Origin: a virus
Strand: one strand, 5' to 3'
DNA: 64,000 nucleotides
IMG/VR virus record: IMGVR_UViG_3300029136_000219
Coordinates: 56,475 to 120,474 of that record
The position numbers were made by a program, and so were the translations under genes. The notes under the pieces are model-generated. The model searched no databases. It saw nothing but the letters and a program-made list of their open reading frames with translations, and had not been told where the DNA came from. Of this stretch, positions 1,633-53,600 are shown in pieces; positions within the stretch are counted from its first letter, which is position 1; every line of letters begins with the position of its first letter.

Positions 1633-1703
1633 TTTTGTTAATATTTTGCGAACTTTATGGAAAATTACAAATTTTTCATAAATATTTGCGATTTATATAT
1701 TGG
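1633..1703 (+). promoter_or_regulatory. conserved promoter-like cassette (copy identical to 38149-38216)
   Basis: TTTTGCGAAC...ATATTTGCGATTTATATATTG. Same 68-bp sequence recurs at 38.15 kb, and the family recurs at least 10 times. Confidence 0.5.
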
Positions 1704-1717
1704 GTGGTGAAAAAAAT

Positions 1718-1894
1718 ATGTTTTTTGAGATTATTAACAACGAAAAAAGAACAGTTTTTACAACTGATGATAAGAAGTGTATTCCGATGATTGGAATTTT
1801 AAAACTTCAAAATAAAAATGGTTATAAATTCAAATTGGATGGTAAAAATATTTCATTAAATAACCTAATTAATTATGTAAATGAGGAGGAATAA
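1718..1894 (+). CDS. hypothetical protein
   Basis: ATG 8 nt after a GGGTGGTGA RBS. In frame with the track ORF 1700-1894. Confidence 0.5.
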   Translation: MFFEIINNEKRTVFTTDDKKCIPMIGILKLQNKNGYKFKLDGKNISLNNLINYVNEEE

Positions 1895-1896
1895 CA

Positions 1897-2217
1897 TTGG
1901 ATTACAAGAGTAAATGCAATACCAAAGAAGAACTTGCAGTATTAGAGTTAATCAGAGAAGACCAATATATTACTTCTACTGAAATAAGTCTGCACACAAG
2001 GTTGGGTACACAGCAAATAAGAGAACAGATTAATCATATGAGAACTAACGGTATTCCTATCGTTGCTTGTAATAAAGGTTATAGACTAACTGATAGTGCT
2101 CAAGATGTATCTGACCAAATAGAATCACTGCTTGGCAGAATTAACAGCATATATAATGCAATAGATGGCTTGGAAAAAGCCAAAATCATTTTAAAGGAGA
2201 ATAATACGAATGGGTAA
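1897..2217 (+). CDS. putative winged-helix DNA-binding protein
   Basis: TTG start after GAGGAGGA. Predicted HTH segment (ITSTEISLHTRLGTQQIREQINHMR). Confidence 0.5.
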   Translation: MDYKSKCNTKEELAVLELIREDQYITSTEISLHTRLGTQQIREQINHMRTNGIPIVACNKGYRLTDSAQDVSDQIESLLGRINSIYNAIDGLEKAKIILKENNTNG

Positions 2218-2551
2218 TGAAAACGTTTTAAATGACATTTTAGACGGTAAGAAGGTAAAGGTTGACAGAAAGACCAAAAAGGCTGCAAAAAAGCTTGTAA
2301 AAAATAATTTAGGCGGTATCACTTCTCTTGTGAAGGATCTATCTAATTCCGAATTATCGGATGCTGAAATGCAAAATAAATTTAATGACTTTATGTTTGG
2401 TATGTTGGGTTCACTAAAAAAAGACGATACCAATGGTGCTGATGAAGTATCTGAATTTATACCAGATAAAGAAAATAACAGTGATGGTTCAGAGAATGTT
2501 GAATTATCGGAAATGGTAGGTGAAGTTCTTGAAGAAGTCAGCAAGAATTAA
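2210..2551 (+). CDS. acidic hypothetical protein
   Basis: RBS AAGGAGA. D/E-rich 113-aa ORF. Confidence 0.55.
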   Translation: MGNENVLNDILDGKKVKVDRKTKKAAKKLVKNNLGGITSLVKDLSNSELSDAEMQNKFNDFMFGMLGSLKKDDTNGADEVSEFIPDKENNSDGSENVELSEMVGEVLEEVSKN

Positions 2552-3605
2552 TTACGCCACACCAATTGTAGCACTGATATTACTTGTCGTAATAGGCTTA
2601 TTTACTTATTTTGTGTCTTACAATGTAAATATACATAATTATACTTTTACCTTTGATAAAGCATCTTACGAGTACACAGGGCAACAAATAAAGCCTAAGT
2701 TTGTTGCAAAAACAAAAGCCGGTATAAAAATCAATATGGAAAATTACACTGTTGACTACATTGATAATACAGAAGTAGGCACAGGTACGGTAACACTTAC
2801 TAATAAGAACAAACTCTTTGCTATTGGTAAAGCAAAAGGACAATTTAAAATTGTGCCTGCTGCAATTAAAAACACACGAATCACTTCATCAAAAGCATAT
2901 CCAAACGGTAAATATAAATTTGATATTGAATATAACGGAATGAAACTTGAAGAAGGTAAAGATTATGCTGTGAATTTCAACAAAGATACATTAACACCGG
3001 GTGATATTAATATTTTCGAACTTAAAGGTATCGGAAAACATTATCAATCAACTACTAAGGTAAATGTTTTAACAGCACCAAATACGATTAATAAAACAGA
3101 TTTGATTGTATCTACATCATCAACAATTTCTATTCAATGGGATAAAGATAACAATAATGTCAAGTATGATATTTTTAGATGTAATCAAAGTGGTAATGAT
3201 GCTTATTTAATAAGTACGGTTGATAAAAATACGTACACATTTAAAGAATTGCCTCATTCAACATACATTTACTATTATATCAGACCATTTATTGAATTAA
3301 ACGGACAAAAACTCTATGCAGAAGGCAAAAAGGTACTTTCGCAACATACCACTGCACCGGAGATAATTATAAAAGGCGTTAGCCGAAGTGGTAGTACAGT
3401 CTCGATATATTGGAAAGCAGAAAATTGCAAGTTATATGAAGTTCAGTATTCAAATGATAAAAGTTTTTCAAATGCAAGAACTGTAACAGCTACTAAAAAC
3501 AATATTACAATGAAAAATATGTCTAATCCTTGTTATGTAAGGGTTAAATGTGTAACAAACGATTCAAAAATTATTGGCTATTGGAGCCAAGCACAAAAAG
3601 TATAA
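2529..3605 (+). CDS. membrane-anchored protein with FN3/Ig-like repeats
   Basis: Likely TTG start after AGGTGA. The track start (GTG at 2520) overlaps the upstream gene. N-terminal signal anchor. FN3-like segments. Confidence 0.55.
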   Translation: MKKSARINYATPIVALILLVVIGLFTYFVSYNVNIHNYTFTFDKASYEYTGQQIKPKFVAKTKAGIKINMENYTVDYIDNTEVGTGTVTLTNKNKLFAIGKAKGQFKIVPAAIKNTRITSSKAYPNGKYKFDIEYNGMKLEEGKDYAVNFNKDTLTPGDINIFELKGIGKHYQSTTKVNVLTAPNTINKTDLIVSTSSTISIQWDKDNNNVKYDIFRCNQSGNDAYLISTVDKNTYTFKELPHSTYIYYYIRPFIELNGQKLYAEGKKVLSQHTTAPEIIIKGVSRSGSTVSIYWKAENCKLYEVQYSNDKSFSNARTVTATKNNITMKNMSNPCYVRVKCVTNDSKIIGYWSQAQKV

Positions 3606-3619
3606 GGAGAATAAATATT

Positions 3620-7283: not shown

Positions 7284-7471
7284 GAGGTGAAAATATTATG
7301 CTTGGTGTTCTTTTACTGATATTTTTATCAATATTTTTGGTTGTTATTTTACTAATAAGTTTAGTGAATTTTGTTTTTTATAATAACGATTCTATAAAAT
7401 TTGAAAACAAAGTTGAAAATTCAAATATAAAAAACATTGATTTTAAGTACAGAAATGTTTTTAAAAAATAA
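7280..7471 (+). CDS. small membrane protein
   Basis: Overlapping start. Two hydrophobic helices. Confidence 0.45.
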   Translation: MRGENIMLGVLLLIFLSIFLVVILLISLVNFVFYNNDSIKFENKVENSNIKNIDFKYRNVFKK

Positions 7472-7483
7472 GAGGCGATAATA

Positions 7484-7990
7484 TTGCAATCCATATTAGT
7501 TAATGTGAAATCCTTGGAAGCTAATTCTATTTGTGAAAAGAAAAATAATTTTATTGAAAGAAAAAGTCAACCAAAATTAGAGCCACCGTTCACTTGTTAT
7601 TTGTACTGTGGTAAAGCAAAAACAAAAAAAGATATAGTGAGCTTTTGTTACTATACCAAAGATGATTTTATTCTTTTTGATAATATTATTAATGGTAGAG
7701 TTTTTGGCAAATTTACCTGCGATTACATTCAAAAAGAAAAAGATTGTCAGAGAAATGATAAATCAGTATATTTTTGGCATATTAGCAACTTGATAATTTA
7801 CAGACAATCTATTGAATTAAATGCATTTCTGTTTCCTAAATGGAATGAAAAAAGACCTTGTGATTATGGTTATTGTGAATTTGAAAATAAATGTTTGAAG
7901 AAGGGTATTTATTATGACAATTGCCCGAAAACAAAATTAAATAAAGCACCGGTATCATGGCGCTATGTAAATAAGGGGAGTTTATTTTGA
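7484..7990 (+). CDS. Cys-rich hypothetical protein
   Basis: TTG start after AAGAGGCGA. 168 aa. Confidence 0.5.
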   Translation: MQSILVNVKSLEANSICEKKNNFIERKSQPKLEPPFTCYLYCGKAKTKKDIVSFCYYTKDDFILFDNIINGRVFGKFTCDYIQKEKDCQRNDKSVYFWHISNLIIYRQSIELNAFLFPKWNEKRPCDYGYCEFENKCLKKGIYYDNCPKTKLNKAPVSWRYVNKGSLF

Positions 7991-8074
7991 TTTTTATAGA
8001 AAAAGGTATTTCTTACTCGTGAAGAAGCAAAAAAATATAAAATCGTATAAATAAATTAAGGTTCGAAAAGTGAA

Positions 8075-9499: not shown

Positions 9500-9511
9500 A
9501 AATAAGGAGAT

Positions 9512-10225: not shown

Positions 10226-10229
10226 CATT

Positions 10230-10394
10230 ATGATTGCTGCACTGTTCCTGATTTTTAATATTTCATCTATTCTCACATTTATATATTATTGCAAATTACC
10301 ACAGCCTAAAATGTCTGACGATGAGCACAATTTTAACAAGTGTGATTTCAAAGTGAACAATATTATAAAAAATCAGCAAGTTACCGGCAAGTAA
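10230..10394 (+). CDS. small membrane protein (54 aa)
   Basis: ATG ORF with an N-terminal hydrophobic helix. Weak RBS. Confidence 0.25.
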   Translation: MIAALFLIFNISSILTFIYYCKLPQPKMSDDEHNFNKCDFKVNNIIKNQQVTGK

Positions 10395-10477
10395 AATAAC
10401 AAGTAATAAAGCCAAATAGTTGAAAATATATGCTTTTTAGCAAGTTACAAGCAAGTTAAACTGAAAGGAAAAATAAA

Positions 10478-12860: not shown

Positions 12861-12980
12861 TTAATGGGTAAAGAATGTCAACTGCCACACACCGTAAAGG
12901 AATGTGGTTTTACGGAAAGCTATTTATATGATTTTCACAATTATATGGTGAAAGATTAATTTCTGTAACCTTTTTTAATA

Positions 12981-13042
12981 AATTGCGAATTTTAAGCAAT
13001 ATTTCAAATTTTTTCAAAATATTTGCGATTAATTATATAGAA
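12981..13042 (+). promoter_or_regulatory. conserved promoter-like cassette
   Basis: AATTGCGAATTTTAAG...AAATATTTGCGATTAATTATATAG. Confidence 0.5.
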
Positions 13043-13068
13043 ACAAAAAACAAAAGGAGATTTTTATT

Positions 13069-15682: not shown

Positions 15683-15712
15683 AAAAAGAGCCACCGGAAG
15701 GGTGGCTTTTTT
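15683..15712 (+). terminator. rho-independent terminator
   Basis: GCCACCggaagGGTGGC, then a T run. Confidence 0.65.
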
Positions 15713-15732
15713 TATGCCTTGATTTACTCTTT

Positions 15733-15803
15733 TGTAAACAATTTGCGAAAATTGAGAAAATTTTCAAATTTTTTTGAAATATTTGCGATTAATTATATAG
15801 AGA
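15733..15803 (+). promoter_or_regulatory. conserved promoter-like cassette
   Basis: TGTAAACAATTTGCGAAAATT...GAAATATTTGCGATTAATTATATAGAG. Confidence 0.5.
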
Positions 15804-15823
15804 CTATTTTAGGAGGGGATTAT

Positions 15824-16198: not shown

Positions 16199-16214
16199 GA
16201 AAGAAGGTTTATAT

Positions 16215-19044: not shown

Positions 19045-19216
19045 TCACCCAAAATGTTAAAAAAAGAACTACCTTAATTGGTGGTTCTTTTTCTGTTTGT
19101 AAACAATTTGTGAAAATTACGAAATATTTCAAAAAAAATGAAATATTTGCGATTTATATAGTGAAGGCTGAAAAAGAATAAGTAACTTTTTTGTAATTTT
19201 AGGAGGATTTTTTATG
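19025..19216 (+). repeat. ~190-bp direct repeat, copy 1 (gene 3-prime end, terminator, promoter cassette, RBS, start codon)
   Basis: Near-identical to 20262-20451. Includes the terminator GAACTACCttaattGGTGGTTC and the promoter cassette TGTAAACAATTTGTGAAAATTACG...TTTGCGATTTATATAGTG. Confidence 0.75.
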
Positions 19217-20278: not shown

Positions 20279-20451
20279 TCACCCAAAATGTCAAAAAAAG
20301 AACTACCTTAATTGGTGGTTCTTTTTCTGTTTGTAAACAATTTGTGAAAATTACGAAATATTTCAAAAAAAAATGAAATATTTGCGATTTATATAGTGGA
20401 GACTGAAAAAGAATAAACAACGTTTTCGTAATTTTAGGAGGATTTTTTATG
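20262..20451 (+). repeat. ~190-bp direct repeat, copy 2
   Basis: See 19025-19216. Confidence 0.75.
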
Positions 20452-30492: not shown

Positions 30493-30495
30493 ATT

Positions 30496-30565
30496 TGTAA
30501 ACAATTTGTGAAGATTTAAGAATATTTCAAATTTTTCCGAAATATTTGCGATTTATATAGTGAAG
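30496..30565 (+). promoter_or_regulatory. conserved promoter-like cassette
   Basis: TGTAAACAATTTGTGAAGATT...GAAATATTTGCGATTTATATAGTGAAGGC. Confidence 0.5.
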
Positions 30566-30611
30566 GCTCAAAAAAATGGGTCGAAGTTTCATATTATAGG
30601 AGGAATTTTTT

Positions 30612-38110: not shown

Positions 38111-38140
38111 AGAGTAACCTTTATGGTTGCTCTTTTTTTA
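38111..38140 (+). terminator. rho-independent terminator
   Basis: GAGTAACCtttatGGTTGCTC, then a T run. Confidence 0.55.
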
Positions 38141-38148
38141 TGCCCTTT

Positions 38149-38216
38149 TTTGTTAATATTTTGCGAACTTTATGGAAAATTACAAATTTTTCATAAATAT
38201 TTGCGATTTATATATT
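38149..38216 (+). promoter_or_regulatory. conserved promoter-like cassette (identical to 1633-1703)
   Basis: 68-bp exact repeat. Confidence 0.5.
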
Positions 38217-38232
38217 GAAAGGAGCGTTTATA

Positions 38233-40129: not shown

Positions 40130-40157
40130 TTTTTATTTACAAAAATATTTTAAATTT

Positions 40158-40180
40158 TCTTGCGCGATAAATATATAGAA
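40158..40180 (+). promoter_or_regulatory. short promoter-like motif (TTGCGCGATAAATATATAG)
   Basis: Shares the TTGCGCGAT-(A/T)-TATA core with 53.2-53.6 kb. Confidence 0.35.
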
Positions 40181-43477: not shown

Positions 43478-43517
43478 AGTTCGTCCTCCGGATTGCTTCG
43501 GCACCGGGGGCTTTTTT
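43478..43517 (+). terminator. rho-independent terminator
   Basis: GC-rich hairpin CCGGattgcttcggcaCCGGGGGC, then a T run. Confidence 0.55.
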
Positions 43518-43519
43518 AT

Positions 43520-43588
43520 TAACATTTTGCGAATTTTGGCAAAAACAGCAAATTTTTTTGAAATATTCGCGATTAATAATATAGAACG
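43520..43588 (+). promoter_or_regulatory. conserved promoter-like cassette
   Basis: TTTTGCGAATTTTGGC...GAAATATTCGCGATTAATAATATAGAAC. Confidence 0.5.
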
Positions 43589-46607: not shown

Positions 46608-46640
46608 TATAGTTTTGAGGGCAGTAATTTATATTACTGC
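46603..46640 (+). terminator. rho-independent terminator
   Basis: GGGCAGTAATttatATTACTGCC, then a T run. Confidence 0.6.
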
Positions 46641-46664
46641 CTTTTTTTATTGTGTTTTTTCTTC

Positions 46665-46735
46665 ATTCTGCGAACTTTTTGCGAATATTGACGATTTTTT
46701 CAAATTTTTCTGAAATATTTGCGATTATATAATGT
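46665..46735 (+). promoter_or_regulatory. conserved promoter-like cassette
   Basis: TCTGCGAACTTTTTGCGAATATTG...GAAATATTTGCGATTATATAATGTAAGG. Confidence 0.5.
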
Positions 46736-46750
46736 AAGGAGAAAAAAGCA

Positions 46751-47371
46751 ATGGGATCAAGCTTTAATAAGTTCAAAATTGTTGATAAAGAAACAACAAT
46801 AGTTTACACACAAGATGTAAATGGAAACATCAATGGTAAATTCTATATTGATACTGAAGATTTGTCAAAAGTCCTTATGGTTAAATGTCGTATTTATAAC
46901 GGCAGAGTAATCTACGACCATCCGGCTGAGGATGGAAAATGTAGGGGGCAAAGACAACTTAGTAGATACATTATGGGTATTGCCGAAGATTACGATGTCA
47001 ATGACAGAAAAAGCTCAGTAGTTGTGGACCATATAGACCACAATCCTTTTAACAATAAAAAATCAAATTTAAGAATTATTACATATAAAGAAAACTTAAA
47101 AAATAGAACAAATGCAAATGATTGTGAATTTTTTAAAGGCATAGCTTTTCGTAATAATTATTATATTGTGAGTATCTGTTACAAGAAAAATTCTGTTTAT
47201 TTAGGACAATACAAAAAATTTCATGAGGCTCTTTTTGCTCGTTTTTTTGCGGAAAAAATGATTTTCGGTGAAGTTAAACAAATGGAAAGACCTACAAAAT
47301 TGAGTGAAGATAGAGAAAAGGAAATAGCTAATAAGGTTATTGCCAAGGTTGTGCTCCTCCAAACTGCCTGA
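46751..47371 (+). CDS. HNH homing-type endonuclease
   Basis: VVVDHIDHNPFNNKKSNLRII gives an HNH motif (DH...N...N). Confidence 0.65.
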   Translation: MGSSFNKFKIVDKETTIVYTQDVNGNINGKFYIDTEDLSKVLMVKCRIYNGRVIYDHPAEDGKCRGQRQLSRYIMGIAEDYDVNDRKSSVVVDHIDHNPFNNKKSNLRIITYKENLKNRTNANDCEFFKGIAFRNNYYIVSICYKKNSVYLGQYKKFHEALFARFFAEKMIFGEVKQMERPTKLSEDREKEIANKVIAKVVLLQTA

Positions 47372-47382
47372 AATTGTTAATG

Positions 47383-47444
47383 TTTTGTAAACACTGAGAA
47401 AAATCACAAATTTTTTTGAAATATTCGCGATTTATATAATGTAA
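47383..47444 (+). promoter_or_regulatory. conserved promoter-like cassette
   Basis: TTTGTAAACACTGAG...GAAATATTCGCGATTTATATAATGTAAGG, directly upstream of the TnpB/Cas12-like gene. Confidence 0.5.
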
Positions 47445-47467
47445 GGCGGTAAAAAGGAGGAATTACT

Positions 47468-49264
47468 GTGCCGGAAAAAGAAAAAAAGAATCAATATATT
47501 TTATCAATGGGCTTAGAAATTAATGCTGATGATAAAATTTATCTTGATAAGTATTTTGAATTTGTAAGAAAAATGCAAAATTATTTTATTTCTTATCAGC
47601 TAAAAAAATATAACAAAATGGTAAGAGAAACAAATTATCAAGAATTAAAAATTCAAATTGATAATATTGATAAAGCTATTTCTAATTTTTACAGACAAAT
47701 TATAAACCGTCAAAAAGTTATTGATGAAGGTGAAATATCTAAATGTGAAATCACTTCATACAAGAATGAAATTGCAGAATTGAAAAAAGATATTTCTTCT
47801 TTGAAAAAAGAAAAATCAAAATATCAAAAGCAAATTTATGAACTTTTGAAAGAATACAGGTTTAGTGATTTAAGTTTTAAATCCGATGTAGCTATATTTG
47901 ACAAAATTGATTATTTCACAAAACCTTGTTACAAAACAAAGAATGGTAAGCTTGCAAGAGATAAAAATGGTAACAAAATTCCTATTCTCGATGAAAACGG
48001 AAATGTAAAAAGAAAATGTTTTGTCTCTTCATTAGTGAGAAAATATTCTATTGCTGCACCGATTTGGTCAGCATTTGATAAAAAGTTCAAGGAAAACGGT
48101 GCAGTCCATTTTAAAAGCTTTTTTAATAAAAAATCAGTCAGCTCTATTGCATTCCCAGTTGGTAATTCTTTCAAAGGTAACAATGCTTTTGTTATTCCTT
48201 CTGTAGGCAAAATAATTAAATATAAAATACCAAGAACCCAATACGAAAAGGAAGTATTTAACAAAGAAAATGTTAATGTTATCCGAATTAAAAGGATTTG
48301 GAAGAATACAAAATACAGCTATTCGGTTCAGTTTACTATAACAGGTGAACCTGTGTTAAGGAAAGACAAAGATAATTGTGTCAAACATCCACTTGGCACT
48401 GGTGTAGCAGGTGTAGGTATAAGTTTAAATGAATGTTGGATTTGCACTGAGAACACATTAAAAAGAGTTTCTTTAGTTCCACCTGATGCTTATGAGTTTG
48501 ATAATGAAATAAAACAAATTGAAAGAGCAATGGATAGAAGTAAGCGTGCTACTAATCCAAATAATTTTGATGAAAAGGGTAGGGCAAAGAGCTTTTACGA
48601 AACGCCTGACCCTGATAACCCAGACAAAATCATCAAGTCAAAGCTCCGTTGGAGATTTTCAAAGCATTACAGAAAACTAAGTCAAAGAAAAGCTTATTTG
48701 GAAGGTATTAATGCCAGAAAGCGTAAGCTTTATGACGAAAACCTTGTGAATGAATTATTGCTGTATTTCAATGAAATCAATATTCAAAAGAATGATTTCA
48801 AGAGAACTCAAATGAGTAAACAAAAAGTCGGTGACAGCGCCGATGAAAAGAAAAAGGCTGGTTTACATATTAAAGAAGCATCACCTTCACAGTTCGTTGA
48901 AATTCTTAAAAGAAAAGTCATCAGCCACGGTGGTAAAGTAAATATCATTACTAAAAAGGAATGTCAAGCAACAGAATTCAATCATATAGACGGTAAGTTC
49001 TATGATATGCCTGTTTCTAACAGGTGGTTTGGTATGAGTGATGGTAATGTTCTTCAAAGAGATGCTCATACGGCTTTTAATCTATTGACACTTAATGATA
49101 TAGAAAAAAGCAACAAACTTTATGATGACTTTTTAAAACAACATTCTGCCGAACTTGAAAAGTTTAATGTTGTTGCACCTGAACAGGTAAATATGGTTAC
49201 TTGCAGTCAGGCAAAAGAAAAAAGAAAGTCAGCAAGAAAAACAAAAAAGAAAAATATTGCATGA
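47468..49264 (+). CDS. TnpB/Cas12-like RuvC-fold protein (candidate compact type V effector)
   Basis: GTG after AAAGGAGG. C-terminal QRDAHTAFNLL matches the RuvC-III RDxNAAxNI motif. GVGISLNE occupies the RuvC-I GIDLG position, and NELLLYFNEINIQKND the RuvC-II position. Beta-rich WED-like block (NTKYSYSVQFTITGE). N-terminal coiled-coil. Degenerate zinc-finger region. Confidence 0.55.
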   Translation: MPEKEKKNQYILSMGLEINADDKIYLDKYFEFVRKMQNYFISYQLKKYNKMVRETNYQELKIQIDNIDKAISNFYRQIINRQKVIDEGEISKCEITSYKNEIAELKKDISSLKKEKSKYQKQIYELLKEYRFSDLSFKSDVAIFDKIDYFTKPCYKTKNGKLARDKNGNKIPILDENGNVKRKCFVSSLVRKYSIAAPIWSAFDKKFKENGAVHFKSFFNKKSVSSIAFPVGNSFKGNNAFVIPSVGKIIKYKIPRTQYEKEVFNKENVNVIRIKRIWKNTKYSYSVQFTITGEPVLRKDKDNCVKHPLGTGVAGVGISLNECWICTENTLKRVSLVPPDAYEFDNEIKQIERAMDRSKRATNPNNFDEKGRAKSFYETPDPDNPDKIIKSKLRWRFSKHYRKLSQRKAYLEGINARKRKLYDENLVNELLLYFNEINIQKNDFKRTQMSKQKVGDSADEKKKAGLHIKEASPSQFVEILKRKVISHGGKVNIITKKECQATEFNHIDGKFYDMPVSNRWFGMSDGNVLQRDAHTAFNLLTLNDIEKSNKLYDDFLKQHSAELEKFNVVAPEQVNMVTCSQAKEKRKSARKTKKKNIA

Positions 49265-49280
49265 CAGCAATGTTGATATA

Positions 49281-49427
49281 GGTAGACTTAGCTACCTAAA
49301 ACTACCGGTAAACGCATTTTTGTGTTTGGTAGTAATGAAATAATTAAGGTTAAGCAGTTAGTTGGTTTGCGTTTGTCAGAACTTAATAGAGCTGTTTGAC
49401 AAGATTATACAGTGTAATTAATTTGAG
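49281..49427 (+). promoter_or_regulatory. conserved structured leader 1 (~147 nt) with sigma70-like promoter TTGACA-17-TAATTT abutting the first repeat
   Basis: Three copies (49281, 50588, 51416) about 90% identical. Hairpin GGTAGacttagCTACC, which shows compensatory change to GGCTG/CAGCC in copy 2. Confidence 0.6.
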
Positions 49428-49529
49428 GTTTTGGTACTGTAGTAGATTACACTACTCTAAAAGAAATATATTGGGAGTGTCTGAAAAATCCATGTTTTGG
49501 TACTGTAGTAAATTACACTACTCTAATTA
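49428..49529 (+). CRISPR. mini CRISPR array 1 (2 repeats, 1 spacer)
   Basis: 36-bp repeat GTTTTGGTACTGTAGTAGATTACACTACTCTAAAAG. 30-bp spacer AAATATATTGGGAGTGTCTGAAAAATCCAT. Second repeat is degenerate at its 3-prime end. Confidence 0.7.
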
Positions 49530-49578
49530 CACCATTTGGTGTGTTTTATATAAAAAATAATTTAGGAGGAAAAAATAT

Positions 49579-49680
49579 ATGTCATTCAATATGGTTATGG
49601 TTATTATTTGTGCTGTAATTCTTGTTGCTTGCATTATTGCTCTTATTGTAAGAGGCATTAAGAGTAAGCGCAATAAGTAA
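49579..49680 (+). CDS. tiny membrane peptide (33 aa)
   Basis: TAGGAGGA RBS. MSFNMVMVIICAVILVACIIALIVRGIKSKRNK. Paralog at 53224. Confidence 0.4.
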   Translation: MSFNMVMVIICAVILVACIIALIVRGIKSKRNK

Positions 49681-49735
49681 TTAAGTACAAATACAGCATC
49701 CCCGGATACGCTGATTAAACATTATCCGGGAATGT

Positions 49736-49823
49736 GACAATGTAGTTTAACGGTAAAACACAAAAGTTGTTTTTTTGATCCTCCTTCGACTTTTGGATGT
49801 AAGTTCAAATCTTACCATTGCCA
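49736..49823 (+). tRNA. atypical tRNA-like gene (class-II-like long variable arm, anticodon loop GTTGTTT, no encoded CCA)
   Basis: Acceptor stem GACAATG/CATTGCC with one mismatch. D-stem GTTT/AAAC. Anticodon stem CAAAA/TTTTG. Variable arm ATCC...GGAT. T-arm GTAAG-TTCAAAT-CTTAC. Anticodon identity ambiguous. Confidence 0.4.
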
Positions 49824-49832
49824 ATAAGATAT

Positions 49833-49915
49833 GCTGATGTGATGGAATGGCAGACAGAAGAGACTTAAAATCTCTTGGTGGAAACATCGTGTGAGTTCGA
49901 CTCTCACCATCAGCA
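49833..49915 (+). tRNA. tRNA-Leu(TAA)
   Basis: Acceptor GCTGATG/CATCAGC. Anticodon stem-loop AGAGA-CTTAAAA-TCTCT. Long variable arm. T-arm GTGAG-TTCGACT-CTCAC. CCA encoded. Confidence 0.75.
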
Positions 49916-50266
49916 CCACTGCAGGGCCCAAGTGAAAGGTCTAAGAAGTTTCACAACGGTATAAGATATTTCTTGGCTGGTTTTTGCCGTGTGCTGGAAT
50001 GCACTGAATCAATAACCTTACAGACAGTATCAAAAAAGTTAGGACTTTTTGTATTGGAAGGGTTGCTGACCTTTCCGTAGTTTTTCTAATGATTTAAAGG
50101 AAGTTAAGCAAAAGTGTACATATTACTTTACTGAATTTAATCACCGTATTAACACGCTGATAGACAGTATTTCTCCCACAATTCGGGAAGTAAAGAGATC
50201 TATTGGTTGAAAGTAAATGGATACGGCAGAACAGTGCACATCTGCCGTATCACGATTATTAAATAC

Positions 50267-50338
50267 GCAGATATGATGTAATCGGTAGCATACAACTCTT
50301 CCACAGTTGGTGTGCGAGTTCAAACCTCGTTATCTGCT
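50267..50338 (+). tRNA. tRNA-Gly(TCC)
   Basis: Acceptor GCAGATA/TATCTGC. Anticodon stem-loop CAACT-CTTCCAC-AGTTG. T-arm GCGAG-TTCAAAC-CTCGT. CCA encoded. Confidence 0.75.
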
Positions 50339-50347
50339 CCAAAATAT

Positions 50348-50420
50348 TCTCCATTAGTTCAGAAGGTAGAACGGTAGACTGTTAATCTATATGTCATTGG
50401 TTCAAATCCAATATGGAGAG
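50348..50420 (+). tRNA. tRNA-Asn(GTT)
   Basis: Acceptor TCTCCAT/ATGGAGA. Anticodon loop CTGTTAA. T-arm ATTGG-TTCAAAT-CCAAT. CCA encoded. Confidence 0.75.
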
Positions 50421-50426
50421 CCAAAC

Positions 50427-50499
50427 GGACCGTTAGCTTAGTAGGTAAAGCAACCGGCTCATAACCGGTAAACCATGGGTTCAAATCCTATACGGTCCA
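50427..50499 (+). tRNA. tRNA-Met(CAT), elongator-type (or Ile-lysidine)
   Basis: Acceptor GGACCGT/ACGGTCC with base-paired 1:72. Anticodon stem-loop ACCGG-CTCATAA-CCGGT. CCA encoded. Confidence 0.75.
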
Positions 50500-50505
50500 C
50501 CATAT

Positions 50506-50578
50506 GTGTCATTAGCTCAGTAGGTAGAGCAACAGACTTTTAATTTGCAGGTCAAGGGTTCAATTCCCTTATGACACA
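50506..50578 (+). tRNA. tRNA-Lys(TTT)
   Basis: Acceptor GTGTCAT/ATGACAC. D-arm GCTCAGTAGGTAGAGC. Anticodon loop CTTTTAA. T-arm AAGGG-TTCAATT-CCCTT. CCA encoded. Confidence 0.75.
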
Positions 50579-50587
50579 CCACTTAAT

Positions 50588-50736
50588 AGGGCTGAATTAG
50601 CAGCCTGATGCTACTGGTAAACACATTTTTGTGTTTGGTAGTAATGAAATAATCAAGGTTAAGCAGTTAGTTGGTTTGCATTTGTCAGAACTCAATAGAG
50701 CTGCTTAACAAGATTATATAGTGTAATTAATTTGAG
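50588..50736 (+). promoter_or_regulatory. conserved structured leader 2 with promoter TTAACA-17-TAATTT
   Basis: See leader 1. Hairpin GGCTGaattagCAGCC. Second stem AAACAC/GTGTTT, where copy 1 has a G-U wobble. Confidence 0.6.
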
Positions 50737-50904
50737 GTTTTTGTACTGTAGTAAATTACACTACTCTAAAAGCGCCGCAGAATTGCTTCCACGGTGGTCT
50801 TTGTTTTGGTACTGTAGTAAATTACACTACTCTAAAAGGACAGCTACAGTTTTAGGCACGGTTTTCTTGTTTTTGTACTGTAGTAAATTACACTACTCTT
50901 AACG
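50737..50904 (+). CRISPR. mini CRISPR array 2 (3 repeats, 2 spacers)
   Basis: Repeats GTTTTTGTACTGTAGTAAATTACACTACTCTAAAAG, GTTTTGGTACTGTAGTAAATTACACTACTCTAAAAG and a degenerate terminal repeat ...CTCTTAACG. Spacers CGCCGCAGAATTGCTTCCACGGTGGTCTTT and GACAGCTACAGTTTTAGGCACGGTTTTCTT (30 bp each). Confidence 0.75.
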
Positions 50905-50967
50905 TTGTTTGTTTTGAGAAATGCAAGACAAAGAGTAGTAAATTTCATTTAAAAGAGGAAAAAATAA

Positions 50968-51408
50968 ATGCATTTAGATACAGCAGTAATATTTTTTATT
51001 GGTGTTCCTGTATATTTGCTAATGGCATTATTATCAAGAAAATTTGCGTATGTTGAAGCATCAATTGGATTGCTAATATGTTCAATTGTTAGCCTATTTA
51101 CAGAAAACACAGGAATAATTTGTTTGGTGATATATTTTGGACCATTCATTGTTTCAGCTATTATGAAACCAATAGAAAATAGGATAAATAAAAAGAAACA
51201 AGAAAAAGAATTGCATAAATTTGCGGATATGCAAAAAGGAAAGGTGGGTGTTATCCATGAATTAGAAGATGGCAACTTATATTTATTCCTCTCAGGTAGA
51301 TATTGGCAAATATCCGAACAGTCGAGAATTAAATATAATTGTGAGGAACAAGATGCCGTTAAGGTATTAGATATTAATACAGATAGACTTATCGTTAAGC
51401 CTATTTAG
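50968..51408 (+). CDS. membrane protein
   Basis: AAGAGGAAAAAA RBS. Three TM helices. Confidence 0.55.
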   Translation: MHLDTAVIFFIGVPVYLLMALLSRKFAYVEASIGLLICSIVSLFTENTGIICLVIYFGPFIVSAIMKPIENRINKKKQEKELHKFADMQKGKVGVIHELEDGNLYLFLSGRYWQISEQSRIKYNCEEQDAVKVLDINTDRLIVKPI

Positions 51409-51415
51409 TATATAT

Positions 51416-51563
51416 GGGTAGACTTAGCTACCTGAAACTACCGGTAAACGCATTTTTGTGCTTGGTAGTAATGAAATAATCGAGATTAAGCAGTTAGTTG
51501 GTTTGCATTCGTCAGAACTTAATAGAGCTGTTTGATAAGATTATGTAGTCGTAATAATTTGAG
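51416..51563 (+). promoter_or_regulatory. conserved structured leader 3 with promoter TTGATA-17-TAATTT
   Basis: See leader 1. Coordinates +/-1. Confidence 0.55.
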
Positions 51564-51727
51564 GTTTTAGAACCATATATAACTACACTACTCTAAAAGG
51601 ACGAGGCTTATGTTGATTTCGGCGGCACGGTTTTAGAACCATATATAACTACACTACTCTAAAAGGTCTGAGATAGTTGCAACAATAAAAAACTTTGGAA
51701 CTGTATTATATTACACTATTTTTTAAA
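51564..51727 (+). CRISPR. mini CRISPR array 3 (2 good repeats plus a degenerate third, 2 spacers)
   Basis: Repeat GTTTTAGAACCATATATAACTACACTACTCTAAAAG. Its 3-prime 18 nt are shared with arrays 1 and 2; the 5-prime part is divergent. Spacers GACGAGGCTTATGTTGATTTCGGCGGCACG and GTCTGAGATAGTTGCAACAATAAAAAACTT. Coordinates +/-1. Confidence 0.65.
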
Positions 51728-51744
51728 AAAAGGAGATAAAAATT

Positions 51745-52149
51745 ATGCTAAAAATTGCAAAACCAAACTTCTTCGTAAATGAAGAAAAGAGAACAATCGT
51801 TGGTAAGTTGATTATGCCGGATGATAAAGAATTATTTGATGTTGCTCAATTAGTTGACGAGGTTGACGAAGATTTCTGTTATGAAAATCTTAAAAATTCC
51901 TATGACTTTACTATTTTTGAAGCAAAGGCAAAGTGCTGCCCCGAAGACAAGTGGGATGTAGAAAAAGGAAAGGCCATTGTTAATGAACGATTGGGTAAAA
52001 TGATTATTCAAAGAGTTAAACGTCAGGCTAAAGAAGAAAGAACAAAAATTATTAATCGTATCAGTGAACTCGATGAAATCATAAAGCATTGTGATAAAAG
52101 CATCGACAATTCAAACAAACATATTGATAAAATTATCAAGGGGGAATAA
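51745..52149 (+). CDS. hypothetical protein
   Basis: AAGGAGATAA RBS. Confidence 0.55.
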   Translation: MLKIAKPNFFVNEEKRTIVGKLIMPDDKELFDVAQLVDEVDEDFCYENLKNSYDFTIFEAKAKCCPEDKWDVEKGKAIVNERLGKMIIQRVKRQAKEERTKIINRISELDEIIKHCDKSIDNSNKHIDKIIKGE

Positions 52150-52151
52150 TT

Positions 52152-53102
52152 ATGAGTTTAGCTAAGAAAGTATTATCGGTTGGTATTGCTTCTATTATGG
52201 CAATGTCAGCTATTGGAGTTGGCACTACTGCACTTGCCGAACCAATTAATTCTGTTCAGTCGGCTACTTCAATTTCACTAAATGAGAGTAAAACTGTGAC
52301 CTTGAAATATGGTGATATTGGTAATTATGATGACATCTCGGAAGATACTGTTTACTATAAGTTTACTGCTCCGACCACTAATTATTATGAATTTACCTTA
52401 ACAGGTTACAAGACAAGAATTGATAATAATGACCCAAGTGCTTATATTGATATAACAGATGAATATGGCGTCAATGCATCGTCAAGTGGGGGCTTATTTA
52501 ATCCGTATTTTAATGATGTAAAATCAATTGCCTATTTGGAACAAGGAAAGTCATATATAATCAATGTCTTTTACTCACCAATTGGTACTCAAGAGTACAA
52601 TTCAAAGGACTATGCCGAAACAGCAATTACACTAACTGTTTCTCCACATACACATGACATTACAAGTGTCGTTAATGACGGATATACAGACTACACCTGC
52701 AAGCGTTGCAATTATTCATATACCGAATTTAAACCGTTACCGACATCTCCTTCACAGCCTACACAGGCTCCTACAAGCACTGTTACTCCAATAACAGCAA
52801 GTAAGGTATCAAAGCCAAAAAAGACTAAAATTAAAAAGGTAAAGGCTGCTAAGAAGGCATTGGCAGTTACTTGGAATAAAGTATCCGGCGTAAAAGGTTA
52901 TCAAGTACAGGCTGCAACAGACAAAAAGTTCAAAAAGAACAAGAAAACTGTTACAATCAAGAAGCAAAAAACTACTAAGACAACCGTAAAGAAACTTAAA
53001 GCTAAGAAAAAGTATTACGTAAGAGTAAGAACTTACAAGACCATAAATGGAAAAAAGGTTTACTCGGCTTGGTCAAGTGTAAAAAATGTAAAAACTAAAT
53101 AG
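52152..53102 (+). CDS. secreted protein with C-terminal K-rich FN3 module
   Basis: Signal peptide. C-terminus KGYQVQAATDKKF...YYVRVRTYKTINGKKVYSAWS parallels the LRR protein tail. Confidence 0.65.
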   Translation: MSLAKKVLSVGIASIMAMSAIGVGTTALAEPINSVQSATSISLNESKTVTLKYGDIGNYDDISEDTVYYKFTAPTTNYYEFTLTGYKTRIDNNDPSAYIDITDEYGVNASSSGGLFNPYFNDVKSIAYLEQGKSYIINVFYSPIGTQEYNSKDYAETAITLTVSPHTHDITSVVNDGYTDYTCKRCNYSYTEFKPLPTSPSQPTQAPTSTVTPITASKVSKPKKTKIKKVKAAKKALAVTWNKVSGVKGYQVQAATDKKFKKNKKTVTIKKQKTTKTTVKKLKAKKKYYVRVRTYKTINGKKVYSAWSSVKNVKTK

Positions 53103-53117
53103 ACTTTTTTGTAAATC

Positions 53118-53160
53118 TAAAAAGCACCATAGAATTTTGATTTTCTATGGTGCTTTTTTA
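53118..53160 (+). terminator. rho-independent terminator
   Basis: AAGCACCATAGAAttttgattTTCTATGGTGCTT, then a T run. Confidence 0.7.
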
Positions 53161-53175
53161 TTTTTCTAAAAATAA

Positions 53176-53600
53176 AAAACTTGCGCGATATATATATTGA
53201 ACGAAGCAGTTAGGAGGAATGTTATGACACTTACAGGAAACATAATTTTGCTGATTGTATGTTCAATTACATTTATTGCAAGTTTGACGGCTCTCATTTT
53301 GAGAAGTGTCAAAAAACACAAAAAATGAAAAAATTTAATATTCAAAAATTTTAAAAAGTTGCGCGATATATAAAGTGAAAGGTGAATAACACTCATTTGA
53401 TATTAGAAATTTGGAGCTTGATTATAACCTTTCTGAAAATAAAAAAATTGCGCGATATAGAAAATGGTGAGGTTAAACCGCACTGGCGTAAATATCGTAT
53501 TGAAAATTATAAAAAATCAAATAGAACCTGCTTTGAGTGTATATTTTGAGGATTTGTATTTGATTTTATGAAAAAAAATTTTCTTGCGCGATATCTTAAG
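53176..53600 (+). repeat. four short promoter-like repeats (A/T-run + TTGCGCGATAT + A/T) within 430 bp
   Basis: Copies at about 53176, 53357, 53443 and 53578. Core shared with the long cassette (TTGCGATTTATATAG). Confidence 0.5.
53224..53328 (+). CDS. tiny membrane peptide (34 aa)
   Basis: AGGAGGAA RBS. MTLTGNIILLIVCSITFIASLTALILRSVKKHKK. Paralog of 49579. Confidence 0.4.
   Translation: MTLTGNIILLIVCSITFIASLTALILRSVKKHKK

What the first reader, a model, noticed from the sequence alone, without database searches (positions are those of the whole stretch)
1633..53600. A conserved ~65-bp terminator-proximal promoter-like cassette repeated at least 10 times, plus a short TTGCGCGATAT variant at least 5 times
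Consensus is about TTGTAAACAATTTG(T/C)GAAAATT(A/G)(C/A)GAAATATTTCAAA(T/A)TTTTT(C/T)GAAATATT(T/C)GCGATT(T/A)ATATAG(T/A)G. Copies lie at 1633, 12981, 15733, 19097, 20329, 30496, 38149, 43520, 46665 and 47383. Two copies, 1633 and 38149, are 68/68 identical although 36 kb apart. Each sits downstream of a rho-independent terminator and 20-60 nt upstream of an RBS. The core TTTGCGATTTATATAG lacks canonical -35/-10 spacing. It resembles single-element late promoters such as T4 TATAAATA, so it may be read by an element-encoded sigma factor or activator. It drives the TnpB/Cas12-like gene, the HNH gene, Dcm and many small ORFs. That suggests a co-regulated, temporally controlled regulon.
Basis: seen in the sequence. 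Interest (0 to 1): 0.55.

Follow-up and report, generated by a model that had tools for sequence, protein, structure and literature searches.

The report
Repeated terminator–promoter cassettes, non-standard core
A huge uncultured gut mobile element punctuates its accessory-gene region with copies of one terminator-plus-promoter cassette whose core does not look like a standard bacterial promoter. These copies also act as break-and-join points where gene modules are gained and lost, a pattern already known from T4-like phages.

Summary
A profile search finds exactly 10 full copies of about 75 nt, all on the + strand and all intergenic (E 1e-13 to 1e-18). There are also 5 short-core copies. Eight of the 10 long copies directly follow a strong hairpin-plus-T-run terminator.

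The invariant core is AAATATTYGCGAT followed by an A/T-rich TATA box and a purine. It has no sigma-A -35/-10 geometry, although a perfect TTGACA-17-TATAAT promoter exists at 61152. The best fit is a group-3 (sigma-28/SigD-like) layout: nnCAAAT, 14 nt, yGCGATww, with a projected +1 purine in 14 of 15 copies. This is inferred only. No sigma or RNA polymerase gene was found in about 130 kb surveyed, so the reading enzyme is unresolved.

Close relatives differ by indels whose junctions lie inside the cassettes, and one copy has been converted to match another 36 kb away. This is behaviour like the PeSL cassettes of T4-like phages. A sister lineage carries a different cassette (nTGTAn-N17-TTACTATATA), so the motif is lineage-specific.

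The element is at least 318 kb. It is labelled viral in IMG/VR but carries conjugation-type genes. Verdict: promoter cassettes, a new variant of a known kind, of moderate interest.

The parts
1589..1614 (+). intrinsic terminator preceding copy 1
   Evidence: 11-bp stem, dG -13.3 kcal/mol, followed by a T-run
1634..1707 (+). long cassette copy 1. -35-like TACAAAT, -10-like TGCGATTT at 1687-1694, projected +1 G at 1702. The SD GGTGGTGA starts at +2 and the ATG is at 1718.
   Evidence: nhmmer E 9.2e-17; layout table; 70-nt exact identity with copy 7
12971..13043 (+). long cassette copy 2 (GCGATTAAT-TATATAG class). It lies upstream of the 86-aa zinc-ribbon ORF 13069-13329.
   Evidence: nhmmer E 1.8e-13; only a weak hairpin upstream
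15685..15711 (+). intrinsic terminator preceding copy 3
   Evidence: dG -16.3 kcal/mol
15730..15804 (+). long cassette copy 3. It is the left junction of the 4.5-kb module that is absent from the 114.8-kb relative.
   Evidence: nhmmer E 8.2e-17; L003 joins window 15803 to 20330 inside the motif
19061..19092 (+). intrinsic terminator preceding copy 4
   Evidence: dG -16.0 kcal/mol
19095..19169 (+). long cassette copy 4. It is part of a roughly 200-nt repeat (19024-19236 matches 20258-20471).
   Evidence: nhmmer E 4.6e-15; repeat families D12 and D14; L058 and L060 lack 19221-20257, with the junction in this repeat
20295..20326 (+). intrinsic terminator preceding copy 5
   Evidence: dG -16.0 kcal/mol
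20329..20404 (+). long cassette copy 5, upstream of the PcfJ-like gene 20449-21930
   Evidence: nhmmer E 8.7e-16; PF14284
30458..30491 (+). intrinsic terminator preceding copy 6
   Evidence: dG -19.0 kcal/mol
30494..30568 (+). long cassette copy 6, upstream of ORF 30612-30926
   Evidence: nhmmer E 2.5e-18
38111..38133 (+). intrinsic terminator preceding copy 7
   Evidence: dG -12.4 kcal/mol
38149..38223 (+). long cassette copy 7. In this genome its sequence has been converted to that of copy 1. The SD AAAGGAG starts at +2.
   Evidence: nhmmer E 5e-17; the orthologous copy in relatives L004 and L007 differs; 70-nt identity with copy 1
40142..40178 (+). short-core copy (TTGCGCGATAAATATATAG), upstream of the DUF4190 gene 40231-40566
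43485..43510 (+). intrinsic terminator preceding copy 8
   Evidence: dG -14.4 kcal/mol
43515..43588 (+). long cassette copy 8 (TTCGCGATTAATAATATAG), upstream of the C5 DNA methylase 43630-44862
   Evidence: nhmmer E 4.6e-16; PF00145 9.6e-53
46609..46653 (+). intrinsic terminator preceding copy 9
   Evidence: dG -16.7 kcal/mol
46667..46740 (+). long cassette copy 9, upstream of the HNH gene 46751-47371. The SD AAGGAG abuts the TATAAT-G box.
   Evidence: nhmmer E 3.8e-16; phrog_99; its orthologue in L052 carries the short-type core
47374..47447 (+). long cassette copy 10, upstream of the TnpB-family 598-aa gene. It has no terminator and overlaps the end of the HNH ORF.
   Evidence: nhmmer E 1.4e-16
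53119..53158 (+). intrinsic terminator preceding the first copy of the short-core cluster
   Evidence: dG -21.8 kcal/mol
53163..53199 (+). short-core copy (TCTAAAA-N12-CGCGATAT, projected +1 G), upstream of a 34-aa hydrophobic ORF
53341..53377 (+). short-core copy (TTCAAAA-N14-CGCGATAT, projected +1 G)
53430..53466 (+). short-core copy (TCTGAAA-N12-CGCGATAT, projected +1 G)
53566..53602 (+). short-core copy (CGCGATAT, projected +1 G). There is no clear ORF downstream for about 160 nt.

Best explanation
**What it is.** Each copy is a self-contained transcription punctuation cassette. It consists of an intrinsic terminator that stops the upstream unit, about 50 nt of helically phased A/T boxes, and a lineage-specific core promoter that starts the next unit.

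**Shown.**
- The cassettes are repeated, strand-specific and intergenic, and most are coupled to a terminator.
- AAATATTYGCGAT is invariant among paralogues that are otherwise about 66% identical.
- The upstream half is dispensable.
- The cassettes are recombination junctions between close relatives.

**Inferred.**
- The core is read by bacterial RNA polymerase carrying a specificity factor other than sigma-A.
- The layout that best fits all copies is a group-3 (sigma-28/SigD-like) promoter: -35-like nnCAAAT (or TCTRAAA), 14 (or 12) nt of spacer, -10-like yGCGATww, an A/T-rich TATA discriminator, and initiation at the conserved purine 8 nt after the -10 block.
- Whether the factor is a host flagellar-type sigma or one encoded in the unread part of the element is unknown.

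**Second role.** Because the copies are 70-200 nt of near-identical DNA, they also serve as substrates for homologous recombination. This deletes, duplicates and swaps the gene modules between them, as PeSL cassettes do in T4-like phages.
For: **Repetition and placement.**
- There are ten full copies and no partial ones, all on the + strand.
- yGCGATww occurs 17 times on the + strand and 2 times on the - strand, and 15 of the 17 lie in the cassettes.
- YGCGATWW-N6-TR gives 13 hits, all on the + strand, against 2.15 expected.
- A terminator with dG of -12 kcal/mol or lower precedes 8 of 10 long copies, and the stop-codon-to-core distance is a uniform 93-116 nt in those eight.

**Selection on the core.** Mean pairwise identity of non-duplicate copies is 0.66, yet the 13-nt core never varies.

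**Geometry.**
- nnCAAAT sits exactly 14 nt from the 8-mer in 10 of 11 long copies.
- The projected +1 is G in 11 of 15 copies and A in 3 of 15.
- The published sigma-28 layout is (-36)TCTAAAG(-30) and (-15)GCCGATAA(-8) (PMC12784957). For B. subtilis SigD it is TAAA-N15-GCCGATAT (PMC5200910).
- In copies 1, 7 and 9 the SD begins at +2 or +3 of this projected start.

**Not sigma-A.** The sigma-70 scan is at chance level (126 found, 125 expected). Only copy 1 scores 9/12. The same window holds a 12/12 sigma-A promoter at 61152.

**Modularity.** In an 88%-identical relative, the orthologue of copy 9 has the short-type core on the long-type upstream half. The orthologue of copy 10 lacks the upstream half.

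**Recombination.**
- L003 joins window 15803 to 20330 inside the motif.
- L058 and L060 lack 19221-20257, with the junction in the 198-nt cassette repeat.
- Copy 7 equals copy 1 over 70 nt, whereas relatives keep a different sequence at that locus.

**PeSL definition and behaviour:** PMC2839356, PMC4122927.

**Lineage specificity.** A sister lineage has a different terminator-proximal repeat, and neither motif occurs in the other element.
Against: - There are no transcript data, so every start site is projected.
- The match to sigma-28 is partial. Only CGAT plus two A/T positions of the -10 element and AAA of the -35 element are shared. The extended -10 GC is replaced by yG.
- Several short copies have a 12-nt spacer or no recognisable -35 element.
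- The spacer block AAATATT is invariant, which sigma-28 does not explain.
- The TATA box plus G shifts as a unit in copy 9 and in the GCGATTAAT class. A TATATA box is also the one feature shared with the sister lineage's motif. Both points suggest the TATA box may be more than a discriminator.
- No sigma-70-family, gp55-like or RNA polymerase subunit gene was detected in about 130 kb.
- Not all indels between relatives lie at cassettes. Examples are 7293-11036 and 24045-24996.
- Long conservation among paralogues could partly reflect recent duplication and gene conversion rather than function.
Confidence: 0.7

Rival explanations
1. **Sigma-A promoter with an operator or activator site.** The TATA(A/T/G)T box is the -10 hexamer for host sigma-A. 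There is no usable -35 element. The invariant AAATATTYGCGAT block is the binding site of an element-encoded regulator, for example one of the small winged-helix proteins. That regulator either substitutes for the -35 contact or represses all cassettes together. This would resemble KorA/KorB-type global control, with zygotic induction after transfer.
For: - The hexamers read TATAAT, TATAGT, TATATT or TATAGA, usually followed by G.
- The TATA box plus G moves as a unit when spacing to GCGAT changes, in copy 9 and the GCGATTAAT class.
- TATATA is the only element shared with the sister lineage's motif, which has a sigma-A-like nTGTAn-N17-TATATA layout.
- TTGCGA[AT] recurs 40 nt apart, at -56 and -16. 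It occurs 17 times on the + strand and 3 times on the - strand.
- The upstream half also sits next to sigma-A-type promoters, at window 61118 and at the end of L157.
- Small wHTH ORFs are present, at 1897-2217 (HTH_11, E 4.6e-4) and L066 6022-6336.
- The element carries conjugation genes.
Against: - The distance from the GCGAT block to the TATA box varies over 7 nt (-2 to +5). This is hard to reconcile with a factor that must contact polymerase bound at that box.
- With the hexamer at -12 to -7, the start falls inside the SD in copies 1, 7 and 9.
- The 13-mer has no dyad symmetry.
- No regulator has been linked to the motif.
Confidence: 0.22
2. **Promoter for a dedicated element-encoded RNA polymerase.** The enzyme would be a phiKZ/AR9-type multisubunit polymerase or a single-subunit polymerase. 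It would recognise one contiguous, highly conserved AT-rich element at a fixed distance from a G start.
For: [quoted passage not shown]
- Here the layout is AAATATTYGCGAT-(9N)-G, with a 13-nt invariant block.
- The motif is strictly lineage-specific.
Against: - No RNA polymerase subunit or single-subunit polymerase gene was found in about 130 kb surveyed.
- Short-core copies lack the AAATATT part.
- Spacing to the TATA-plus-G unit is variable.
- The flanking terminators are classical intrinsic terminators of bacterial polymerase.
- Conjugation-type gene content argues against a phiKZ-like virus.
Confidence: 0.08
3. **T4-late-type single-element promoter.** A TATAAATA-like box at -10 is read by a gp55-like factor with a gp33-like co-activator and the sliding clamp.
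For: - TATA-rich 8-mers match TATAAATA at about 6 of 8 positions.
- A DnaN-type clamp gene lies just upstream of the window and is itself preceded by a cassette.
Against: - No gp55 or gp33 homologue was found in Pfam or PHROGs scans.
- The invariant part of the motif is GCGAT and its upstream flank, not the TATA box.
- A start 6 nt after the box would truncate the SD in three copies.
- The genes driven are accessory and early-type, not virion genes.
Confidence: 0.05
4. **Not primarily a promoter.** The repeats would be cis sites for recombination, partition, replication or DNA uptake (iterons or parS-like sites), or a transcribed RNA element.
For: - The copies are demonstrably recombination junctions.
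- Four short copies cluster within 420 nt at 53.2-53.6 kb.
Against: - The copies show strict co-orientation with the downstream gene and a fixed position between terminator and SD. They are dispersed over more than 100 kb at operon starts.
- There is no consensus RNA structure (-1.57 kcal/mol, no covariation), and Rfam finds only tRNAs.
- Separate iteron-like non-coding DNA exists elsewhere (L157 6371-7945).
Confidence: 0.04

Closest known systems
PeSL (promoter-early stem-loop) cassettes of T4-type phages (Arbiol et al. 2010, PMC2839356; Comeau et al. 2014, PMC4122927)
   Same: - It is a composite of a stem-loop terminator, an A/T-rich upstream region, a strong promoter and an SD.
- It is repeated many times in the plastic, ORFan-rich part of a large genome.
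- Insertion, deletion and replacement differences between close relatives have their junctions in the cassettes.
   Different: - PeSL promoters match the host sigma-70 consensus, and these do not.
- Here the terminator always lies upstream of the promoter. In PeSLs it is often interleaved with the -35 and -10 boxes.
- The host is Gram-positive-type.
- The element is not a T4-type phage and carries a T4SS coupling protein.
- Mini-circle formation was not tested.
Sigma-28 / FliA / SigD-dependent promoters (TAAA-N15-GCCGATAT, PMC5200910; (-36)TCTAAAG(-30) and (-15)GCCGATAA(-8), PMC12784957)
   Same: - The layout is bipartite with the same spacing.
- A CGAT(A/T)(A/T) -10 core is present.
- The -35 element contains AAA, and in several short copies it reads TCTAAAA or TCTAAAT.
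- A purine lies at the position where sigma-28 promoters start.
   Different: - The extended -10 GC is replaced by TG or CG.
- The -35 element is usually TTCAAAT.
- The spacer is itself invariant.
- The genes driven have nothing to do with motility.
- No cognate sigma factor has been identified.
SigN (ZpdN) regulon of plasmid pBS32 in Bacillus subtilis (PMC6751061)
   Same: It is a precedent for a mobile-element-encoded sigma factor whose regulon is confined to that element. It has its own long consensus (TTTACGTTT ... CCAGATATAAT) at many operon starts.
   Different: - The consensus sequence is different.
- A sigma gene is known there and not found here.
- No terminator coupling or recombination role was described there.
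Early promoters of phiKZ/AR9-type jumbo phages (AAATATATATTAT-(6N)-G, PMC5312081)
   Same: It is an extended, highly conserved AT-rich element at a fixed distance from a G start. It is repeated tens of times and is specific to one phage lineage.
   Different: - Those promoters are read by a virion-packaged multisubunit polymerase, and no such genes were seen here.
- This motif has a GC-containing core and a second upstream block at sigma-like spacing.

Membership tests
PeSL cassettes | Composite of a stem-loop terminator/attenuator and a promoter in one short intergenic unit | tested here: met
   8 of 10 long copies follow a hairpin with dG of -12 to -19 kcal/mol plus a T-run. The stop-codon-to-core distance is 93-116 nt.
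PeSL cassettes | Promoter part matches the host sigma-70 consensus, with an A/T-rich region upstream of -35 | tested here: not met
   No copy reaches 10/12 with a 16-18 nt spacer. An A/T-rich phased upstream region is present.
PeSL cassettes | Concentrated in plastic, ORFan-rich regions, immediately upstream of ORFans | tested here: met
   The first gene after 5 of the 10 long copies has no Pfam hit at E of 0.001 or lower.
PeSL cassettes | Indel or replacement junctions between close relatives lie in the cassettes | tested here: met
   Two clean cassette-to-cassette junctions were found. Three more indels have one end within 45 nt of a cassette, and at least two indels are unrelated to cassettes.
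PeSL cassettes | Carried by a T4-type myovirus | tested here: not met
   The element has a T4SS coupling protein, ArdC/LPD11, PcfJ, sortase and a TED/SpaA adhesin. No T4 core genes were seen.
Sigma-28/SigD promoters | -10 element GCCGATA(A/T) at -15 to -8 | tested here: inconclusive
   yGCGATww matches CGAT plus two A/T positions in 15 of 15 copies. The first two positions differ in all copies.
Sigma-28/SigD promoters | -35 element TAAA / TCTAAAG about 14-15 nt upstream of the -10 8-mer | tested here: inconclusive
   nnCAAAT lies at 14 nt in 10 of 11 long copies. TCTRAAA lies at 12 nt in 5 short copies. Some short copies have none.
Sigma-28/SigD promoters | Transcription depends on a sigma-28-family factor | not testable with these tools
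   No sigma gene was found in about 130 kb read. The host is unknown, and the genome-contig scan gave only chance hits.
Sigma-A promoters | TTGACA-like and TATAAT-like hexamers 16-18 nt apart | tested here: not met
   In contrast, window 61152-61180 is a 12/12 match.
T4 late promoters | TATAAATA at -10 as the sole element, with gp55, gp33 and the clamp | tested here: not met
   There is no exact TATAAATA. The invariant block lies upstream of the TATA box. No gp55 or gp33 hit was found.
phiKZ/AR9 vRNAP early promoters | Element encodes split beta/beta'-like polymerase subunits | tested here: inconclusive
   None were found in about 130 kb of an element of at least 318 kb. The rest was not readable.
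Single-stranded (Frpo/ssi-type) promoters or RNA leader elements | Extensive conserved secondary structure of one strand | tested here: not met
   The consensus fold is -1.57 kcal/mol with 0 compensatory pairs. Rfam gave no hit.

The most novel reading that the evidence does not exclude
A giant (318 kb or larger) uncultured gut element runs a regulon of more than 100 kb from one private promoter class. The class would be read either by a sigma-28-family factor it encodes or by the host's flagellar sigma, which it hijacks. Its sister lineage has switched to a different private promoter. Promoter specificity would then co-evolve rapidly with the element, while the cassettes double as the recombination joints that shuffle its accessory genes.
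Probability: 0.25. Interest if true: 0.55.

Novelty: new variant of a known kind. Interest (0 to 1): 0.38.

Why it matters
- If the cassettes are promoters of a private specificity class, they give a ready-made map of transcription units for a very large, uncultured and widespread human-gut element. Its proteins appear in 74-99 index blocks of the metagenome contig collection.
- The cassettes also offer a handle for finding the factor that reads them.
- They extend the PeSL idea, regulatory cassettes acting as joints for modular gene shuffling, from T4-like coliphages to a Gram-positive-type giant element with conjugation genes.
- The cassettes drive a TnpB/Cas12-like nuclease, DNA methylases, an HNH nuclease and many ORFans. 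Knowing how they are switched on bears on how such elements deploy defence and counter-defence genes.
- None of this overturns current concepts.

Tried and rejected
- **RNA element.** RNAalifold on 11 copies gave -1.57 kcal/mol and no covariation. Rfam found only 6 tRNAs.
- **CodY box in the spacer.** The best matches were 11-12 of 15 at inconsistent offsets. Forty-six sites scoring 12/15 or better occur window-wide.
- **Spo0A 0A boxes (TGNCGAA).** None lie in the cassettes.
- **Reverse-strand promoter.** No consistent hexamers were found.
- **Independent occurrence of the upstream half.** Hits at up to 3 mismatches are at chance level, 14 against 9.3 expected.
- **Host or prophage copy.** The genome-contig scan returned 21 single chance hits in unrelated taxa. 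Megablast against cultured phages gave no match.
- **IMG/VR hits outside the lineage.** L001, L002, L012, L015 and L019 are coding-sequence coincidences.
- **Hunt for a sigma, polymerase or late activator.**
  - I ran Pfam on all window ORFs of 50 aa or more and PHROGs on most of them.
  - I also covered 10 kb downstream (precomputed Pfam only) and about 55 kb upstream.
  - The upstream stretch was reached by walking the 192-kb IMG/VR contig with all 8 viral scans.
  - Nothing was found.
- **T4SS coupling-protein homologues.** They carried no organism names, so no host could be inferred.
- **More distant relatives.** Relatives with 55% Cas12-like identity and 47-65% coupling-protein identity lack the motif.

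Full report

Yes. A profile built from the ten listed sites and run over both strands of the window returns exactly those ten. They lie at 1634, 12971, 15730, 19095, 20329, 30494, 38149, 43515, 46667 and 47374. All are on the + strand, with E 1.8e-13 to 2.5e-18, and the next hit has E 0.012. Shuffled sequence gave no match to the 22-nt core.

The copies at 1633 and 38148 share 70 identical bases. The short form TTGCGCGATAT occurs four times exactly, at 53181-53584, and once with one mismatch at 40160. That is 5 hits against 0.45 expected.

Two details in the finding need correction.
- A strong intrinsic terminator (dG -12 to -19 kcal/mol plus a T-run) precedes 8 of the 10 long copies and 1 of the 5 short ones, not every copy.
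- The Shine-Dalgarno (SD) sequence begins 2 to about 40 nt after the TATA box, and in three copies it abuts the box.

**2. Anatomy**

Read 5' to 3', a long cassette has these parts:
- the stop codon of the upstream gene;
- a terminator hairpin and T-run;
- a series of TTnnnAA boxes phased about 10 nt apart at -67, -56, -37, -27 and -16 (TTGTAAA, TTGCGAA or TTGTGAA, TTTCAAA, TTTTGAA, TTGCGAT);
- the invariant block AAATATTYGCGAT;
- an A/T-rich TATA(T/A/G)(T/A) box;
- a purine.

Non-duplicate paralogues are on average only 66% identical over -81 to -8, yet the 13-nt block never varies. That points to selection on the block rather than mere recent copying.

The eight-mer yGCGATww is strongly strand-biased, with 17 on the + strand and 2 on the - strand. 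Fifteen of the 17 are the cassette copies. YGCGATWW-N6-TR gives 13 hits, all on the + strand, against 2.15 expected.

The single strand has no meaningful fold (-1.57 kcal/mol, no compensatory pairs). Rfam finds only the six tRNAs. The signal therefore acts at the DNA level.

**3. What surrounds it**

The window has 29% GC, and essentially all its genes are on the + strand.
- Genes have strong GGAGG-type ribosome-binding sites.
- Gene products include YopX (three copies), sortase, LemA, RNase H, T4-type RNA ligase and a RecG-like helicase.
- They also include two DNA methylases, UDG, a radical-SAM protein, a BspA-LRR protein, an HNH nuclease and a TnpB-family 598-aa protein.
- Many ORFs hit PHROG families of unknown function.

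The window is 99.98% identical to part of a 317,903-bp ENA scaffold. The same proteins occur on contigs of 265-817 kb from many human-gut samples.

IMG/VR lists two close relatives (114.8 and 192 kb) as viral. However, walking the 192-kb contig upstream revealed the following:
- a T4SS coupling protein (PF02534, 9.7e-48);
- a 1954-aa thioester/SpaA adhesin;
- an ArdC/LPD11 polyvalent protein;
- RecD2 and a ribosome hibernation factor.

Whether the element is a huge phage, a megaplasmid or a hybrid is open. I call it a giant mobile element.

**4. Distribution of the motif**

Beyond the 15 sites in the window, further copies occur upstream of these genes or positions in relatives:
- the DnaN-type clamp gene (L020 7615-7687);
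- the hibernation-factor gene, and a second site with the hybrid core AAATATTTGCGATAT;
- three sites with the short core, upstream of surface-protein and other operons;
- a 2564-aa giant gene downstream of the window.

The class therefore spans at least 120 kb.

Only this lineage has it.
- All other exact-pattern hits in IMG/VR and in 185,579 representative genomes are single coincidences.
- Relatives whose Cas12-like protein is 55% identical lack it, as do relatives whose coupling protein is 47-65% identical.
- An 88%-identical relative and a 90%-identical relative keep it.

The sister lineage (a 166-kb contig, coupling protein 47% identical) has a different terminator-proximal repeat at equivalent places, nTGTAn-N17-(TTAC)TATATA. 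It has six copies in 64 kb, all on the coding strand. That motif is absent from the window.

**5. Is it a promoter, and for what enzyme?**

Position and orientation make a promoter by far the simplest reading. But it is not a sigma-A promoter.
- The consensus scan is at chance level, and only one copy scores 9/12.
- The window does hold a perfect TTGACA-17-TATAAT promoter, at 61152. It lies behind a terminator and in front of a 1252-aa secreted protein.

Two readings of the core remain.

*Reading A.* The two blocks that keep constant spacing are the recognition elements. nnCAAAT lies 14 nt from yGCGATww in 10 of 11 long copies. TCTRAAA lies 12 nt from it in five short copies.
- This is the geometry of sigma-28/SigD promoters: (-36)TCTAAAG(-30) and (-15)GCCGATAA(-8) (PMC12784957), and TAAA-N15-GCCGATAT (PMC5200910).
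- Projecting that geometry places +1 on G in 11 of 15 copies and on A in 3 of 15. It leaves every SD intact, and in three copies the SD then starts at +2 or +3.

*Reading B.* The TATA(n)T box is a sigma-A-type -10 element and the GCGAT block is a regulator site.
- In its favour, the box plus the following G moves as a unit when spacing changes. TATATA is also the one feature shared with the sister motif.
- Against it, the box floats over 7 nt relative to the rigid upstream blocks. A start 6-7 nt after it would also fall inside, or at the first base of, the SD in copies 1, 7 and 9.

I favour A, but only modestly. The sigma-28 match is partial: CGAT plus A/T, and AAA. The invariant AAATATT spacer is unexplained.

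No sigma-70-family, gp55/gp33-like or RNA polymerase subunit gene was found in about 130 kb. At least 190 kb of the element could not be read with the tools.

SigN of plasmid pBS32 is a precedent for an element-encoded sigma with an element-restricted regulon (PMC6751061). AR9 and phiKZ early promoters are a precedent for long private AT-rich promoters (PMC5312081).

The phased A/T boxes upstream resemble the phased A-tracts known upstream of strong Gram-positive promoters. This rests on my own knowledge of Helmann 1995 and was not checked here.

The upstream part is dispensable. In the 88% relative, the orthologue of copy 10 lacks it, and the orthologue of copy 9 combines it with the short-type core.

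**6. Second role: recombination joints**

Comparison with close relatives shows the following.
- (i) The 114.8-kb contig joins window 15803 directly to 20330. It thus lacks 4.5 kb between copies 3 and 5, with the junction inside the motif.
- (ii) Two ENA contigs lack 19221-20257, with the junction in the 198-nt repeat that contains copies 4 and 5.
- (iii) Three contigs lack 18460-19189, ending 20 nt after copy 4.
- (iv) 37433-38104 and 46881-47334 are absent from relatives and end 40-45 nt before copies 7 and 10.
- (v) Copy 7 in this genome has the sequence of copy 1, whereas relatives keep another sequence there. This is gene conversion.

Other indels (7293-11036, 24045-24996) are not at cassettes. 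The cassettes are therefore one route of plasticity, not the only one. This is the behaviour described for PeSL cassettes of T4-type phages (PMC2839356, PMC4122927).

**7. Comparison and verdict**

Functionally this works like PeSLs: terminator-plus-promoter punctuation that doubles as a shuffling joint. It is not a PeSL family member, because the promoter is not sigma-70-type and the carrier is not a T4-type phage.

The T4-late analogy is not. The element-encoded sigma remains untested.

Novelty is that of a new variant of a known kind. Interest is moderate, raised somewhat by three things:
- the private, lineage-switching core;
- the size and prevalence of the element;
- the cargo it drives.

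Start-site mapping and a full-genome search for the specificity factor would settle the mechanism.

Noticed in passing
window 49276-51724: There are three mini CRISPR-like arrays. The repeat is 36 nt (GGTTTTGGTACTGTAGTAAATTACACTACTCTAAAAG) with a 66-nt period, in 2+3+3 units. Each array sits behind a roughly 150-190-nt conserved leader. They are interleaved with six tRNA genes (49735-50581) and lie directly downstream of the 598-aa TnpB-family ORF 47468-49264. No cas1 or cas2 was seen.
   Followed up: partly
window 61075-61210: A terminator is followed by a perfect sigma-A promoter, TTGACA-17-TATAAT, at 61152-61180. A secreted protein of more than 930 aa starts at about 61207 and runs off the window. 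In relatives it is 1252 aa with transglutaminase-core and fn3 domains. A sequence resembling the cassette's upstream half (TTGTAAAACATATGCGAAC) lies just upstream of this promoter.
   Followed up: partly
window 53800-58800: A T2SSE/VirB11-family ATPase (54124-55419) is followed by a 618-aa ORF and is flanked by several small hydrophobic, pilin-like ORFs (for example 53844-54011 and 57292-57609). This may be a pilus or secretion operon.
   Followed up: no
L150 13668-15815; L150 4739-10603; L020 982-3481: The identity of the element is ambiguous. Upstream of the window in relatives there are a T4SS coupling protein, a 1954-aa thioester/SpaA adhesin and an ArdC/LPD11 polyvalent protein. Yet IMG/VR labels the contigs viral and many ORFs hit PHROGs. 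The same proteins sit on independent contigs of 585-817 kb.
   Followed up: partly
L065 1194, 2435, 6175; L067 19688; L155 14217, 22195: The sister lineage (166-kb contig) has its own terminator-proximal repeat, nTGTAn-N17-(TTAC)TATATA. It is on the coding strand upstream of genes and is absent from this window.
   Followed up: partly
L157 6371-7945: A 1.5-kb non-coding stretch lies downstream of the coupling-protein operon. It contains iteron-like repeats (AAAAGTATCAAA(C/A)GATTTTTAAAAGT) and may be an origin of replication or transfer.
   Followed up: no
window 29222-30431; 13079-13301 and 24080-24302; 38215-38994: There are local gene duplications. These include tandem paralogues 29222-29725 and 29778-30431, of which one relative has only one copy. 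There is also a 223-nt repeat between 13.1 and 24.1 kb. A 259-aa ORF is built of four or five repeats of about 56 aa of the GQKM(K/R)I..Y....DI.V.F.DGT type.
   Followed up: no
L026 15330-17081: Downstream of the window there is an HATPase_c protein (275 aa), then a STAS-like DUF4325 protein (116 aa), then a PIN/terminase-like 181-aa ORF. The first two could form a partner-switching or defence pair.
   Followed up: no
L066 4616-5272: A cassette copy with the hybrid core (AAATATTTGCGATAT) drives a ribosome hibernation factor homologue (S30AE/HPF, PF16321 2e-15) carried by the element.
   Followed up: no
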